Below are positions 15,001-24,000 of a stretch of 64,000 nt of DNA, one piece after another. Position numbers: made by a program. Position 1 is the stretch's first letter, and each line of letters starts with the position of its first letter. Location of the stretch: contig OZ281497.1 in NCBI GenBank assembly GCA_965637545.1, forward strand, positions 28,644,001 to 28,708,000, read 5' to 3'. Source of the DNA: Phallusia mammillata. Its lineage: Eukaryota.

Positions 15001-18000
15001 TAACAAAATAGACAAACTCACTTGTTGCAACAAGTTTGTGATAATTCGGTTTATTCTTGACGTCATGGTCATTCTACAGACCGAAGGCACAAGTCACGTG
15101 ATTCAGTTTTTGTGCAGTTTTATAAAAGCACATTTTGACATCCACAGTCATGATTGCAAACAAATTTGTGTATTTAAGTAAATCATTGTAAATTAATGAC
15201 CCATTATGATAGGTCTTCAATAGAAACTTAATGCTATAAATAAACTGCACCCATCTTTAATCAAATTAAAAAGGATTGTCGTTTATTCATGACAAAGAAC
15301 GAAAGTGCAGCACGGCATCTTCACAAAGCTTCCGCATTATAGTTTATGTGTTTAGGGAACCAAGTCAGTTATTCGTTTGTGCTTGTTGTTGTGAAGGAAA
15401 GTTTGATTGCGTTTTGCAGGTAGTTTGTGGTTAGCATGTAAACATGTAATTTACATTTGCGGGTCAATTTTCGTAGCGCTTTTAACATTCAACGATATAT
15501 GTATTCTTACATGATTTGCATTAACTGCTGATTATTTTTCTTGTCTATGTGTTACTTTCTCGTTTTTTCATAACGGCCCTCAAAACACTTAAACCAAACT
15601 GTGTCTTAATATTTTTGCATGCTTTTGCAGAATAAACATGGCGTTGTTAGTTTTGTTGTTTATGTTGTGTTTGTCAATTTCTGCTGAAGGAACTACTTGG
15701 CATAACGTCAATGGATCTCAATATTCCATCGAAATGACTCCAGTCACTTCATATGCTGAAGCAGAGTACTATTGTTCAGTGTTGCAAGCTAATGTAGCTA
15801 ATGTTAAAAACAACGAAACCTTTGAATACTTAAAGTCATTCATAAACCTGACAGGTATTAATTGTCCAGTTTTGTTATGTTTTAACGACAAATTTGGCAT
15901 TTTAAATTTTGCAAAAGGATTATAGTACGCATTGTGCAACTATATAGCGCATACATTAGGCATGATGTTTTATCATAAGAAATAACGTCTTTAAACAATG
16001 ACAAAATAAACTCGACTTCTATCGTCACAAAAATGGCAGTACTAATTCTTGTCAATGAATTATTATTTGGAAGACACTCTGTTGTAAATTAAGCGACTGT
16101 CTGGTTTAGATGAGCCCTTCTCGTTTTACATTGGTGCTAAAAGTGTCGGAAACACAACCAAGTTTCAATGGAATGATGGAAGCGATGTTTCTGTTCCAAA
16201 ATCTATGTGGTACCCTGGACAACCAGATAACAATAGAAGTGATAATTGCGTCACAATGGGTTATTACATTCGCCCTGTTGATCGCGTGTTATACCGATGG
16301 CATGACGTGCGATGCACATTACACGATGCAAGATACATTTGTGAGAAAAATATGACAGGTTGGAAATGCTATTGAGGTCTTTGGTGTCAAACAAAAGTTA
16401 TTGTAAACTCATAAATTGCATTATATCATTAATCATGTTGTGCAAAGTACAAGTTTAATGTCAGTATTTTAAGGAATGTGTCGTCAATTTGATGTTCTTA
16501 AAACCTTTTTACTTAAAATTTCTGAGAGGACAAAAACAACCCAATCTTCTTATTACAGCCACAACCATACTTTCGTCCACCAAATCAACAGCAACAAGTT
16601 CAACACTATCTACGACAGAACCATCAACAGGTTTCTAACATTTCACCAAACCCGCCATTTTTACCATATTAACATCAACTACTGTTACGGAATTATTTCG
16701 ACAGCTTTGGGAATACGGCTAAAAGACGTTTCAAGTGGCGATGTTAAATCCCAGTCGATCTGTTTATGTCTAATTCTATACATCTTAAACCAAAACTGCC
16801 TCCCTAATTCGGAAACGGCCCGAACCCTGTAATAACGGCTCACCACTAAGCCAAAGAGAGACCACAAACTGGTTTCACTAATGGGCGCCTTGTTTAAATA
16901 AAACGATAAAAAGCATTCGCACAAAACAACTCCGAATTCGACAAGTTCCACTACAAGTCAACGCCAGCAAATACACGACACAAAAGTACACAGTGCTACT
17001 CGTACGGCACCCAGAAGACTGACCATGCTTTCTTCTCAAGCACGTTTTACCACACCAATTACGTTGATTAACATATCACGTGATTCCAAGAGGCACATCC
17101 GGGTATCGCAGAACCAACAAGCGTGAACACGCAACTGGCACATATGAGGCGAACGTATAAAACATAGGAAAAGCATCATGTGTAACAAGAACCATTAAGT
17201 GAAGATACTGTGTGGTGAGAATCATACGCAAAACAATTAAGTGGAGAAATGAGTGGCGAAACATAACAACGATTAGACAAAACAATTAAGTGAATAAATG
17301 AGTGGCGAAACACAGGATAATACACGTTATGTGCATGAAGGTGTGTAATGATCTGAACAAATATAACAAAGTAACGTGAAAGAATAATGAAAATACGTGT
17401 GTGAAGGTAAATTATACAAAAGACGCGTCATAAATAAAACGTGATTAAAATTCGCCACACTACTGTCAAAAGTGCTCAAAAAGAGTTTTTCTACTACGAA
17501 TACAACAAAGGGTAAAAAATAAATAATCTAAATATTTTTGATTGAAAGGAGAATTAATGTTATGTTGGCAAAACGAAATCAAAATTAATTGCTAGCTATA
17601 TGGACGATGGAGTACATGAGTTTTTGTTTCTGATTTTGCAGTTCCAGCAAAGATCAACACAGTCATTATCACTTCAGCAATAGGCGGATGCGTCATATTA
17701 GTCACAATCTACATCGCCATTGTCTTTGTTATGTCACATAAGAAAAGGAGGTAACACATTTGTGTGCAAATGCAATAGGGAATAATGCTGTCACTATTTG
17801 TTTACCTGAATAAAAAATGCATCCAAGCACACAGACGATAATCAGCCTGACTTCTCATTTCTGTTAACTCAAAACTTTGTTACATGCATCTTTACCGTTT
17901 AAACTTGTGGGAAGTAACCCTATGTTCTCGTTCGCAGGAGAAACGAAGCGTCTAATGAAGCAGCAGTGATTTACGACAACGCAGAGGGTAGGAAACATAA

Positions 18001-21000: not shown

Positions 21001-24000
21001 ATTCGGTTTATTCTTGACGTCATGGTCATTCTACAGACCGAAGGCACAAGTCACGTGATTTAGTTTTTGTGCAGTTTTATAAAAGCACATTTTGACATTT
21101 AAATCCACATCCACAGTCAGGATTGAAAACAAATTTGTGCATTTAAGTAAATCATTGTAAATTAATGTCCCATTATGATAGGTCTCCAATGGAAACTCAA
21201 TGCTATAAATAAACTGCACCCATCTTTAATCAAATTAAAAAGGATTGTCGTTTATTCGTGACAAAGAACGAAAGTGCAGCACGGCATCTTCACAAAGCTT
21301 CCGCATTATAGTTTCTGTGTTGAGGGAACCAAGTCAGTTATTCGTTTGTGCTTGTTGTTGTGAAGGAAAGTTTGATTGTGTTTTGCAGGTAGTTTGTGGT
21401 TAGCATGTAAACATGTTCGTTATATTTGCGGGTCGACTTTCGTAGCGCTTTTAACATTCAACGATATATGTGTATTCTTATATGGTTTGCATTAACTATG
21501 CTGATTATTTTTCTTGGATTTATGTTACATTCTCATTTCTTTTTCATAACGGCTTTCGAAGCAATTTAACGAAACTTTGTCTTAATATTTTTGCATGCTT
21601 TTGCAGAACAAACATGGCGTTGTTAGTTTTGCTGTTTATGTTGTGGTCGTCTGTTTCTGCTGAAGGACGAACTTGGCATAACTTTAATGGATTTCAATAT
21701 TCCATCGAAATGACTCCTGTCACTTCATATGCTGAAGCAAAGCAATATTGTTCTGAATTGCATGCTAATGTAGCTAACGTTAAAAACAACGAAACCTTTG
21801 AATACTTGAAGTCATTCATAAACCTGACAGGTATTAATTATCCAGTTTTGTTATGTTTTAACGACAAATTTGGCATTTTAAATTTGCAAAAGGATTATAG
21901 TACGCATTGTGCAAATATATAGCGGATACGTTAGGCATGATGTTTAATCATAAGAAATAACGTCTTTAAACAATGACAAAATAAACCCGACTACTATCGT
22001 CACAAAAATGGCAGTACTAGTTCTTGTCAATGAATTATTATTTGGAAGACACTCTGTTGTAAATTATGCGACTGTCTGGTTTCTAAACTTTAGATGAGCC
22101 CTTCTCGTTTTACATCGGTGCTAAAAGTGTCGGAAACACACATAAGTTTCGATGGAATGATGGAAGCGATGTTTCTGTACCAATATCTATGTGGTTCGAT
22201 CGACAACCAAATGACCATAGAAGTGATAGTTGTGTTACAATGGGTTATTTCAATCGCCCTGTTGATCACGTGTTTTATCGATGGCATGACGTGCGATGCA
22301 CATTACACGATGCAAGATACATTTGTGAGAAAAGTATGACAGGTGGGAAACGTTTTTTGTGGTCTTTTGGTTTAAAAACAACAGTTACTGTAAACTCATC
22401 AATTGCATTATATCATAAGCACATTGCGCAATGTACAAGTTTTATGTGAGGATTGTAGGGAATGTGTCGTTAATTTAATGTTCTTTATACCTTTTTACTA
22501 ACAATTTCTAGGAGGACAAAAACAACCCAATCTTCTTATTACAGCCACAACCATACTTCCGTCCATGAAATCAACAACAAGTTCAACACTATCTACGGCA
22601 GCACCAACAACAGGTTTTAAACATTTCCCCAAAACATCAATTTTACCCATATTAACATCCACTACTGTCAAAAGTGCTGCCAAGAGTTTTTCTACTAGGA
22701 ATACAACAAAGGGTAAAAAATAAATAATCTAAATATTTTTGATTAAAAGGAGAATTAATCTCATGTTGGCAAAACGAAATGAAAACTAATTGCTAGTTAA
22801 ATGGACGATGGAGTACAATAGTTTTTGTTTGTGATTTTGCAGTGCCAGCAAAGATCAACACAGTCATTATTGCTTCAGCAATAGGCGGATGCGTCATATT
22901 AGTCATAATCTGCATCGCCATTGTCTTTATTACGTCACGTAAGAAAAGAAGGTAACAAATAACTGCGCAAATACGGAATAATGCTGCTATTGTTCGTTAA
23001 CCTGAATAAAAAATGTTCAACCATCTAAGCACCAGCGATAATCAGCCTGACTTCTCATTTCTGTTAACTTAAAACTTTGTTACTTGCATCTTTATCATTA
23101 AAACTTGCGGGAAGTAACCCTATGTTTTCGTTCGCAGGAGAAACAAAGCGTCTAATGAAGCAGCAGTGATTTATAACAACGCAGAGGGTGGGAAACATAC
23201 CACAGTTCCTTATAAGTTCCTTATATATACTTGATATAATGACTTTTTTGTTTCGAAAACAAAAGACTTAATATGCACTTTTCTAACGTAGTTGTTTCTG
23301 GTTTGTCATTCTCTTAACAAGTTTGAAACGTCGGTTATTTAATTTAATCAATAACAATTATTGATGATTGTAAAATAAATGTGTTAAACAGATGATAGAT
23401 TTGAACCCGAAGAAACTTACAACATTCCTCAAACTGAAGAAAACAGCTTGGCCAACCATTCAACACAGTCGCCATCACGTCATCAAAACGATGACGTCAA
23501 CCATTATGACGCAATTCAAGAGTCACGTCTGGAAACCGTTGCACAGCCAGTAGCGGGAAGCAGCGATGTCTATGCTCAGATCAGAAATTTGAATCAATTA
23601 ACAAAGGTTCACGACAATGGACAACAATCACACGTTCGAAAATACGATCACAATCAATTGGATGACGTCAATTACGACACTTTGCAACTATCTCAACATG
23701 TGGAAATCCACGATCAATTTGCAAGCGGCAGCAATTCAACTAATATCTATGACAACAGACACGGGGCTAATGACGAATCGGATTCACCTTACGATGAATT
23801 ACGACGTGACAAATAAACTAAACCAACAGAGTTTAGTTAAAATATGTGATAAAGATTATTATGTTCATTTGCAGAAATGAAATCCCATTTATTGTAGAAA
23901 AACGTTGTCGCACTAATTGCCTTGTGTATGTATACAAAAAGGTTTTTAGGTAAGATTGCATTATTGTGGTTAAGATTGTACCATTTTACAAACCCATCTT

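What the first reader, a model, noticed from the sequence alone, without database searches (positions are those of the whole stretch)
16110..22342. Amino-acid changes between U6 and U7 pile up on the sugar-binding loop
Seen (hand count over the 249-nt exon 2): 15 codons change amino acid and 5 are purely synonymous. Seven of the 15 fall in the 12 residues YPGQPDNNRSDN vs FDRQPNDHRSDS and four more in YYIRPVDRVLY vs YFNRPVDHVFY. Inference: diversifying selection on ligand specificity.
Basis: partly seen in the sequence, partly recalled or inferred. Interest (0 to 1): 0.65.

Follow-up and report, generated by a model that had tools for sequence, protein, structure and literature searches.

The report
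Lectin duplicates differ in binding loops
Two neighbouring copies of a sea-squirt-type membrane lectin gene differ mostly in the loops that would hold calcium and sugar, but the better-fitting evolutionary model needs no adaptive selection to explain this.

Summary
The count is right. U6 exon 2 (16110-16358) and U7 exon 2 (22094-22342) differ at 23 of 249 bases. Of 82 whole codons, 15 change the amino acid and 5 are silent. Seven changes lie in residues 34-45 around QPD/QPN, and four in residues 51-61.

Both exons encode the second half of a C-type lectin domain. They sit in a tandem array of about 14 type-I membrane lectin units. The closest named protein is from the ascidian Phallusia mammillata.

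Clustering is modestly beyond chance: scan statistic p=0.026 and 0.012. It falls on sites that also vary among the other ten copies (7/13 vs 8/69, p=0.0016).

Diversifying selection is not established:
- Pairwise dN/dS is 0.68.
- Standard site models give an omega>1 class (2dlnL 26-36).
- With gamma codon-rate variation that signal vanishes (2dlnL 1.3, p=0.51), and M1a+G has the best AIC.
- Null simulations with rate variation reach the observed statistic in 27/120 runs.
- A real omega=4 class would have been detected in 29/30 runs.

Neutral divergence between the units is itself mosaic, 3-23%. This is an ordinary fast-evolving lectin-loop pattern. One notable feature is a QPN-to-QPD switch in U6.

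The parts
15638..15854 (+). [quoted passage not shown]
   Evidence: ATG at 15638, GT donor, open frame; weak Pfam Lectin_C match at profile positions 4-35
16110..16358 (+). U6 exon 2: second half of the lectin domain (82 whole codons, 16112-16357)
   Evidence: AG/GT, phase 1 at both ends; Pfam Lectin_C 31.8 bits against a cut-off of 22.6; PDB lectin-domain matches
16211..16246 (+). U6 long-loop stretch, residues 34-45 (YPGQPDNNRSDN); QPD is 16220-16228
   Evidence: 7 of the 15 amino-acid differences; QPD aligns with EPN/EPD of solved lectins
16262..16294 (+). U6 loop between strands beta3 and beta4, residues 51-61 (YYIRPVDRVLY)
   Evidence: 4 of the 15 differences; the equivalent residues 126-136 of P0001 are coil in the model
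16298..16306 (+). U6 WHD triplet, in the place of the WND motif
   Evidence: Aligns with WND of CLEC4D and mosGCTL-6; identical in U7
16559..16630 (+). U6 exon 3: Ser/Thr-rich stalk
   Evidence: AG/GT, consistent phase, open frame
17642..17750 (+). U6 exon 4: transmembrane segment
   Evidence: Open frame with a hydrophobic stretch followed by KKR
17938..17987 (+). U6 exon 5: start of the cytoplasmic part
18430..18582 (+). U6 last exon: cytoplasmic tail of a different type from U7's, ending in a stop
   Evidence: Phase-consistent open frame to the stop; similar to 42444-43961 and 53927-54170, not to U7
21614..21830 (+). U7 exon 1
22094..22342 (+). U7 exon 2 (82 whole codons, 22096-22341)
   Evidence: Pfam Lectin_C 35.2 bits
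22195..22230 (+). U7 long-loop stretch, residues 34-45 (FDRQPNDHRSDS); QPN is 22204-22212
22246..22278 (+). U7 beta3-beta4 loop, residues 51-61 (YFNRPVDHVFY)
22545..22613 (+). U7 exon 3: stalk, with an in-frame 3-nt deletion relative to U6
22843..22951 (+). U7 exon 4: transmembrane segment
23138..23187 (+). U7 exon 5
23392..23816 (+). U7 last exon: long Tyr-rich cytoplasmic tail
   Evidence: Open to the stop; 70% identical to residues 211-355 of P0001
12522..23400 (+). The two copies of the ~5.95-kb tandem duplication that carries U6 and U7
   Evidence: 12522-15043 matches 18476-21000 at 93.5%; 14000-16685 matches 19955-22668 at 92.6%; 17458-18185 matches 22660-23400 at 84%

Best explanation
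U6 and U7 are young tandem duplicates of a type-I membrane receptor gene. Each encodes a signal peptide, an N-terminal C-type lectin domain, a Ser/Thr stalk, one transmembrane helix and a Tyr-containing tail. They lie in an ascidian-type array of about 14 such units. Their protein differences collect in the long loop around the QPD/QPN calcium and sugar motif and in the beta3-beta4 loop. These are the weakly constrained, fast-changing parts of this fold, whereas the core strands, cysteines and WHD remain under purifying selection. The loops change at about the neutral rate (omega near 1). The background divergence is itself patchy, probably through gene conversion within the array. Adaptive diversification is therefore not needed to explain the pile-up. 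The changes are still likely to alter what the two receptors bind. U6 changed the otherwise invariant QPN to QPD, and U7 changed four positions next to it (Y34F, G36R, N40D, N45S). Shown here: the anatomy, the counts, the location, the model comparison and the mosaic. Inferred: gene conversion as the source of rate heterogeneity, and any change in ligand.
For: Identity: Pfam Lectin_C, alignment of the motifs to PDB lectin domains, and full open six-exon models for both genes. The relative P0001 models as a lectin domain, with matches to DC-SIGN, langerin and codakine at TMt 0.77-0.81.

Constraint pattern: for U6 vs U7, pN/pS is 0.035/0.146 outside the loops and 0.219/0.071 in them. Pooled over four independent young pairs, the loop ratio is 1.12 and the rest is 0.36. 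A per-site test found 21 of 83 columns under purifying selection.

Model choice: M1a+G lnL is -1930.45 and M2a+G is -1929.78, so 2dlnL is 1.34 (p=0.51). AIC values are M1a 3942.2, M2a 3917.3, M1a+G 3910.9 and M2a+G 3913.6. The result is the same on gap-free columns and on subsets of 8 and 6 copies (p=0.67, 0.13, 0.16). In null simulations with rate variation, 100/120 exceed the nominal 5% threshold and 27/120 reach the observed value. In the power test, 29/30 simulated data sets were detected and 0/30 were as low as the observed value.

Mosaic: non-coding divergence is 3.1% upstream, 3.5% in intron 1, 15.2% in intron 2 and 23.5% in intron 5. Exon synonymous sites (15/94) exceed intron 1 (9/254, p=1.7e-4) but equal intron 2 (30/197, p=0.86). 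Exon-1 and exon-2 identities are discordant for U9/U10 (89.9 vs 99.6%) and U3/U4 (84.9 vs 94.9%).

Polarity of the changes.
Against: Standard site models, which many would accept, give a strong omega>1 class: M1a/M2a 2dlnL 28.9, M7/M8 35.7 and M8a/M8 26.0. These results are robust to removing gaps and to subsets. The sites in that class are the loop sites. Sites classed omega>1 without using U6 or U7 carry 7 nonsynonymous and 0 synonymous U6/U7 changes. Exon-2 nonsynonymous divergence exceeds intron 1 (17/197.5 vs 9/254, p=0.025). Four of the U6/U7 loop changes hit positions that are conserved in the other copies (36, 39, 40, 45), which looks more like a directed functional shift than like drift at free sites. 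A small omega>1 class (7% of sites, omega 3.5) is still estimated under M2a+G, though it is not significant. All codon models were my own implementation and used 12 short paralogous sequences.
Confidence: 0.55

Rival explanations
1. The loops are under diversifying positive selection for new ligand specificities, as in other immune-type lectin receptor families, and U6/U7 is a recent example.
For: An omega>1 class of 19-22% of sites with omega 3-4 appears under M2a and M8, p about 1e-7, and is robust to subsets. It is still significant when U6 and U7 are left out (2dlnL 17.7). U6/U7 differences are enriched at those sites (7/13 vs 8/69, p=0.0016) with Nd 7 and Sd 0. U6 switched QPN to QPD at an otherwise invariant ligand position. 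Exon 1 shows no such class (p=0.07-0.38).
Against: Pairwise omega is 0.68. The loop ratio pooled over four pairs is 1.12, which does not differ from 1. The signal vanishes with codon-rate variation. That model has the best AIC. Rate variation alone reproduces the standard statistic in 27/120 simulations. The rate-aware test had 29/30 power against the fitted omega=4 class. The per-site test with its own synonymous rate finds 7 of 83 columns with beta>alpha at p<0.1, and only 2 of them differ between U6 and U7. The array's history is not tree-like, which is known to inflate such tests.
Confidence: 0.3
2. The clusters are patches copied in from other array members by short gene-conversion tracts. 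These would bring several silent and replacement differences at once.
For: Divergence between the units is patchy at a 100-300 bp scale and does not follow exon borders. At codon 16 the three-base difference has each state shared with another copy: ACC with U2 and CAT with U1. Exon-scale discordance at U9/U10 and U3/U4 shows conversion or recombination in the array. Synonymous sites in the exons are 4-5 times more diverged than intron 1.
Against: Within the two loop clusters, none of the ten other copies in the window matches either U6 or U7 over a run of the differing bases. Donors outside the window could not be examined. The polarised changes are split between both lineages.
Confidence: 0.1
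3. One of the two copies is losing function, and its loop changes are decay rather than divergence.
For: U7 lost the conserved Gly before QPN (G36R) and changed N40D and N45S. U6 changed the exon-1 residues F24V and F27S, which are otherwise invariant. Both copies carry WHD instead of WND and Asp instead of the usual Glu before the cysteine. Several neighbours are clearly dead: U8, U12 and the copy at 46434.
Against: Both genes keep six open, phase-consistent exons with AG/GT sites. Outside the loops the pair shows pN 0.035 against pS 0.146, so purifying selection has acted since the duplication. All four domain cysteines are kept.
Confidence: 0.05

Closest known systems
P0001, a 355-aa UniRef/nr protein named 'C-type lectin domain family 4 member G-like' from Phallusia mammillata (name as printed)
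   Same: Same layout: signal peptide, N-terminal lectin domain, transmembrane helix and long Tyr-rich tail. It is 74-75% identical to U6/U7 exon 1, 55-60% to exon 2, and 70% to the U7 tail exon. It has a QPN motif.
   Different: It is not encoded in this window: the best match is 85% in exon 1 and 60% in exon 2. It has WWD where U6 and U7 have WHD, and one more residue in the long loop. No function is recorded for it.
Sugar-binding C-type lectin domains of vertebrate myeloid receptors (DC-SIGN, langerin, mincle, CLEC4D) and the clam lectin codakine
   Same: Same fold: TMt 0.77-0.81 for the P0001 model. The same motif positions align. That these receptors sit in tandem gene clusters with variable loops is recalled, not tested here.
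   Different: The vertebrate receptors are type-II membrane proteins with a C-terminal domain (recalled), whereas here the domain is N-terminal and the protein is type I. Sequence identity is only 20-25%. The motifs here are QPD/QPN with WHD, not EPN/QPD with WND.
Described ascidian C-type lectins: CD94-like receptors of Botryllus and Ciona, MBL-like collectins (passages of PMC5465252), and Polyandrocarpa lectin TC14 (PDB 1byf)
   Same: [quoted passage not shown]
   Different: The CD94-like receptors are type II, and the Ciona one is said to lack carbohydrate-binding capability. Collectins and TC14 are soluble. TC14 matches exon 2 only weakly (E=0.01). I saw no description of a type-I array like this one in searches.

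Membership tests
C-type lectin-like domain (Pfam PF00059) | Profile match above the curated cut-off | tested here: met
   Exon 2 alone scores 31.8 bits (U6) and 35.2 bits (U7) against a cut-off of 22.6, over profile positions 40-107. Exon 1 alone scores 14.9 and 18.2 bits over positions 4-35, below the cut-off as expected for a third of the domain.
C-type lectin-like domain (Pfam PF00059) | The double-loop alpha/beta fold | tested here: met
   Tested on the stand-in P0001, not on U6 or U7, because the exons were not joined. The domain has pLDDT 62-95, and the best PDB matches are lectin domains at TMt 0.77-0.81.
C-type lectin-like domain (Pfam PF00059) | Four conserved cysteines forming two disulfides | tested here: met
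   There is one Cys in mature exon 1 and three in exon 2 (residues 46, 68, 77) in both genes. Their pairing is inferred from the family, not shown.
Calcium-dependent carbohydrate-recognition domains (the sugar-binding subset) | EPN or QPD triplet at calcium site 2 | tested here: inconclusive
   U6 has QPD. U7 and 9 of the 10 other copies have QPN, and U14 has EPN. QPN is reported as a variant motif in arthropod lectins (search listing only).
Calcium-dependent carbohydrate-recognition domains (the sugar-binding subset) | WND triplet, plus a Glu before the third cysteine, as further calcium ligands (roles recalled from the literature on mannose-binding protein) | tested here: not met
   Both genes have WHD where solved lectins have WND, and Asp (SDNC / SDSC) where they have Glu (ENC).
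Calcium-dependent carbohydrate-recognition domains (the sugar-binding subset) | Measured calcium-dependent sugar binding | not testable with these tools
   Needs recombinant protein.
Genes under diversifying selection at the binding site | A site class with omega>1 that survives rate-aware models | tested here: not met
   The class is present under M2a and M8 but absent under M1a+G vs M2a+G (2dlnL 1.34, p=0.51).
Genes under diversifying selection at the binding site | Replacement changes concentrated at ligand-contact loops | tested here: met
   11 of the 15 differences lie in the two loops; 7/13 vs 8/69 at independently defined variable sites.

The most novel reading that the evidence does not exclude
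U6 and U7 may be a paired-receptor-like couple in a chordate invertebrate. They share nearly the same ectodomain scaffold and transmembrane helix. Their sugar and calcium site has been remodelled (QPD against QPN, plus six neighbouring changes). Their cytoplasmic tails are unrelated, and U7's tail carries two motifs that fit the ITIM consensus. On this reading the array would be a diversifying family of type-I lectin immune or self-recognition receptors, whose binding loops are kept different by selection while conversion homogenises the rest. The evidence does not exclude a small omega>1 class (7% of sites under M2a+G).
Probability: 0.15. Interest if true: 0.6.

Novelty: new member of a known kind. 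Interest (0 to 1): 0.3.

Why it matters
If the loops were shown to be adaptively diversified, this array would be a compact, testable case of ligand-specificity evolution in a lectin receptor family of the closest invertebrate relatives of vertebrates. It includes a natural QPN/QPD swap between two near-identical genes. As it stands, it is mainly a caution. The textbook site-model result (p about 1e-7) is reproduced by rate heterogeneity alone in a gene-converting tandem array, so such arrays need rate- and recombination-aware tests before selection is claimed.

Tried and rejected
- The word-indexed protein search with U6 exon 2, lengths 'longer', found nothing.
- The per-site alpha/beta test had little power: 7 of 83 columns had beta>alpha at p<0.1, against about 4 expected by chance.
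- I looked for a gene-conversion donor for the loop haplotypes among the ten other copies and found no run of matches.
- The ORF at 33134-33718 looked to me like a retroelement fragment, but Pfam gave no match at E<=0.01. The U7 tail exon also gave none.
- An assembly artefact (two haplotypes laid in tandem) was considered and judged unlikely. The units differ by a 773-bp indel in intron 3 and have unrelated 3' ends. It cannot be excluded without reads.
- A segment at 18200-18262 that resembles exons of other units does not fit the U6 reading phase and was left out of the U6 model.
- The structure tool returns no coordinates, so burial and distance to the calcium site could not be measured. 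Only secondary structure and confidence were used.
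Full report
WHAT IS THERE

The window is AT-rich (33-43% G+C in 2-kb steps), has no N, and is eukaryotic with short exons. Self-comparison finds about 14 units of one gene family on both strands.

Exon 2 of every unit has an AG acceptor and a phase-1 frame, and encodes the second half of a C-type lectin domain. Pfam Lectin_C matches U6 and U7 exon 2 at 31.8 and 35.2 bits, against a cut-off of 22.6. Exon 1 matches the first third of the profile.

An exhaustive HMMER search with U6 exon 2 gave 205 representatives at E<=0.001. The best, P0001 (355 aa, 60% identity), has the same layout. A source names it a C-type lectin of the ascidian Phallusia mammillata. It is not encoded in the window. I therefore take the window for an ascidian genome, not human.

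Exon by exon, both genes give six open, phase-consistent exons with AG/GT sites:
- signal peptide and first half of the domain;
- second half of the domain;
- Ser/Thr stalk;
- transmembrane helix;
- a short exon;
- the tail exon.

The structure work used the database protein P0001 as a stand-in.

THE OBSERVATION

It is correct to the letter:
- 23 of 249 bases differ.
- Of 82 whole codons, 15 change the residue and 5 are silent.
- Seven changes lie in residues 34-45 and four in residues 51-61.
- The other four are at residues 16, 19, 30 and 80.

A scan statistic gives p=0.026 for 7 changes in 12 residues and p=0.012 for 11 in 28, under uniform placement. When each site is weighted by its variability among the other ten copies, these become 0.052 and 0.031. 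So the clustering is real, but most of it is what the family's own pattern of variability predicts.

WHERE THE CHANGES SIT

In HMMER alignments to solved lectins, QPD lines up with EPN/EPD and WHD with WND. The role of these triplets as calcium and sugar ligands is established knowledge that I recall, not something tested here.

In the AlphaFold model of P0001 (mean pLDDT 63.7; domain blocks 62-95), residues 94-119 and 126-136 are coil between strands and have the lowest confidence in the domain, 62-72. These correspond to the two clusters. The model matches DC-SIGN, langerin, codakine and mincle domains at TMt 0.77-0.81. No coordinates are returned, so I could not measure burial or distance to the calcium site.

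PAIRWISE SELECTION MEASURES

- For exon 2, dN is 0.091 and dS is 0.135, giving omega 0.68. For exon 1, omega is 0.31.
- In the 24 loop columns, U6/U7 show 12 nonsynonymous and 1 synonymous change (pN 0.219, pS 0.071).
- Outside the loops they show 5 and 5 (pN 0.035, pS 0.146).
- Pooled over the four independent young pairs (U6/U7, U3/U4, U8/U11, U9/U10), the loop ratio is 1.12 and the rest is 0.36. The loop value does not differ from 1 (binomial p=0.43).

SITE MODELS

I wrote a GY94/F3x4 likelihood implementation and ran it on the 12 complete exon-2 copies, on an IQ-TREE topology.
- M0 gives omega 0.50.
- M1a/M2a gives 2dlnL 28.9 (omega2 4.0, 19% of sites).
- M7/M8 gives 35.7, and M8a/M8 gives 26.0.
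- Sites with posterior above 0.9 under M8 are residues 1, 34, 35, 41, 42, 52, 53, 55, 57, 60, 62 and 80. Seven of these 12 differ between U6 and U7. Residue 39 (D/N) is in the conserved class.
- The result holds on the 74 gap-free columns of 83 and on subsets of 8 and 6 copies.
- With U6 and U7 left out, 13 of 82 sites are classed omega>1. They carry 7 of the 15 U6/U7 differences (7/13 vs 8/69, Fisher p=0.0016).
- Exon 1 (codons 20-72) shows no such class (p=0.07 with 13 copies, 0.38 with 11). Its tree is half as long, 3.5-4.2 against 7.5 substitutions per codon.

WHY THE OMEGA>1 CLASS DOES NOT STAND

- A per-site test with a separate synonymous rate finds 7 of 83 columns with beta>alpha at p<0.1. 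Only residues 35 and 60 of these differ between U6 and U7. It finds 21 columns with beta<alpha.
- Adding gamma-distributed codon rates removes the signal. M1a+G against M2a+G gives 2dlnL 0.36 and 1.52 with fixed relative branch lengths. It gives 0.79, 4.08 and 3.62 on the gap-free and subset data. With all branch lengths optimised it gives 1.34 (p=0.51).
- Rate variation itself is strongly supported (M1a to M1a+G: 2dlnL 33.3), and M1a+G has the best AIC.
- Controls: under a null without rate variation, my M1a/M2a statistic stayed between 0 and 1.4 in 12 of 12 simulations. Under the fitted M1a+G null, 100 of 120 exceeded 5.99 and 27 of 120 reached the observed 22.24.
- Power: on data simulated with the fitted omega=4 class, the rate-aware test was significant in 29 of 30 runs, and none was as low as the observed value.
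- This agrees with Davydov et al. 2019 (PMC6526913; I read the abstract and the section 'Site Models'). They report false-positive rates above 50% for M8 when codon gamma rate variation is ignored.

THE BACKGROUND IS A MOSAIC

U6 and U7 lie on a ~5.95-kb tandem duplication. Aligned divergence between the two units varies strongly:
- 6.9% at 12522-13999;
- 3.1% at 14000-15000;
- 9.7% in exon 1;
- 3.5% in intron 1;
- 9.2% in exon 2;
- 15.2% in intron 2;
- 12.8% in intron 4;
- 23.5% in intron 5.

The patches do not follow exon borders. One patch covers about 90 nt of non-coding sequence upstream of the ATG. Exon synonymous sites (15/94) are more diverged than intron 1 (9/254, p=1.7e-4) but equal intron 2 (30/197, p=0.86). 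The neutral yardstick is therefore uncertain by a factor of four.

Across the array, 64 of 66 pairs are more alike in exon 1 than in exon 2. U9/U10 (89.9 vs 99.6%) and U3/U4 (84.9 vs 94.9%) show the reverse, and the exon-1 and exon-2 trees disagree. This points to conversion or recombination between units, which violates the single-tree assumption of the site models.

WHAT CHANGED ON WHICH LINEAGE

Marginal reconstruction at the U6/U7 ancestor (M0, posterior at least 0.8) assigns the changes as follows:
- to U7: Y34F, G36R, N40D and N45S;
- to U6: R19Q, N39D (QPN to QPD), N53I, H58R and F60L;
- the other six are ambiguous.

Positions 36, 39, 40 and 45 are nearly invariant in the other copies. 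U6 is the only one of the 12 copies with QPD.

LIMITS

- Only paralogues from one window were available.
- Supplementary files of PMC6526913, which hold its false-positive figures, are closed.
- Searches turned up no description of this array. That is weak evidence of absence.

Noticed in passing
window 18430-18582 (U6) and 23392-23816 (U7): The two near-identical genes end in unrelated cytoplasmic tails. U7's 140-residue tail is 70% identical to that of P0001 and contains VNYDTL and SPYDEL, which fit the ITIM consensus as I recall it. U6's short tail resembles those of the units near 42444 and 53927 and has no such motif.
   Followed up: partly
window 12522-23400: Divergence between the two copies of the duplication runs from 3% to 23% in patches of 100-300 bp that do not follow exon borders. 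Intron 1 (3.5%) is far more alike than the two exons that flank it (9-10%).
   Followed up: partly
window 38000-38808 and 41031-41758 (U9, U10); 8625-9270 and 9700-10399 (U3, U4): Exon 2 is 99.6% (U9/U10) and 94.9% (U3/U4) identical while exon 1 is only 89.9% and 84.9% identical, an exon-scale conversion signature. The single U9/U10 exon-2 difference is a replacement (E/K) at loop residue 52.
   Followed up: partly
window 25669-26302 (U8), 50357-50913 (U12), 46434-46640, 11650-11796 (U5), about 9697-9699 (U4): Several units look dead or damaged. U8 has an in-frame stop in exon 1 and Phe in place of a domain cysteine. U12 has two stops in exon 1 and a truncated exon 2. A further exon-2 relic carries a stop. 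U5 has an exon 1 but no detectable exon 2. U4 has AT where U3 has the GT donor after exon 2.
   Followed up: partly
window 16686-17457: A stretch of about 773 bp in intron 3 of U6 has no counterpart in U7, so it is an insertion or a deletion.
   Followed up: no
window 33134-33718 (- strand); 32000-34000: A 194-codon open frame lies in the only G+C-rich stretch (42.9%). It ends in a motif that reminded me of GIY-YIG endonucleases of Penelope-like retroelements, but Pfam gave no match at E<=0.01.
   Followed up: partly
window 4756-5316 and 57244-57756: Long open frames of Thr/Ser/Pro-rich repeats (units of about 18 residues) follow U2 and U14. They are probably expanded mucin-like stalk exons, much longer than the 23-24-residue stalks of U6 and U7.
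   Followed up: no
window 16157-16159 and 22141-22143 (codon 16 of exon 2): All three bases of this codon differ (ACC Thr in U6, CAT His in U7). Each state is shared with another copy (U2 and U1), which suggests a multi-nucleotide event or a micro-conversion.
   Followed up: partly
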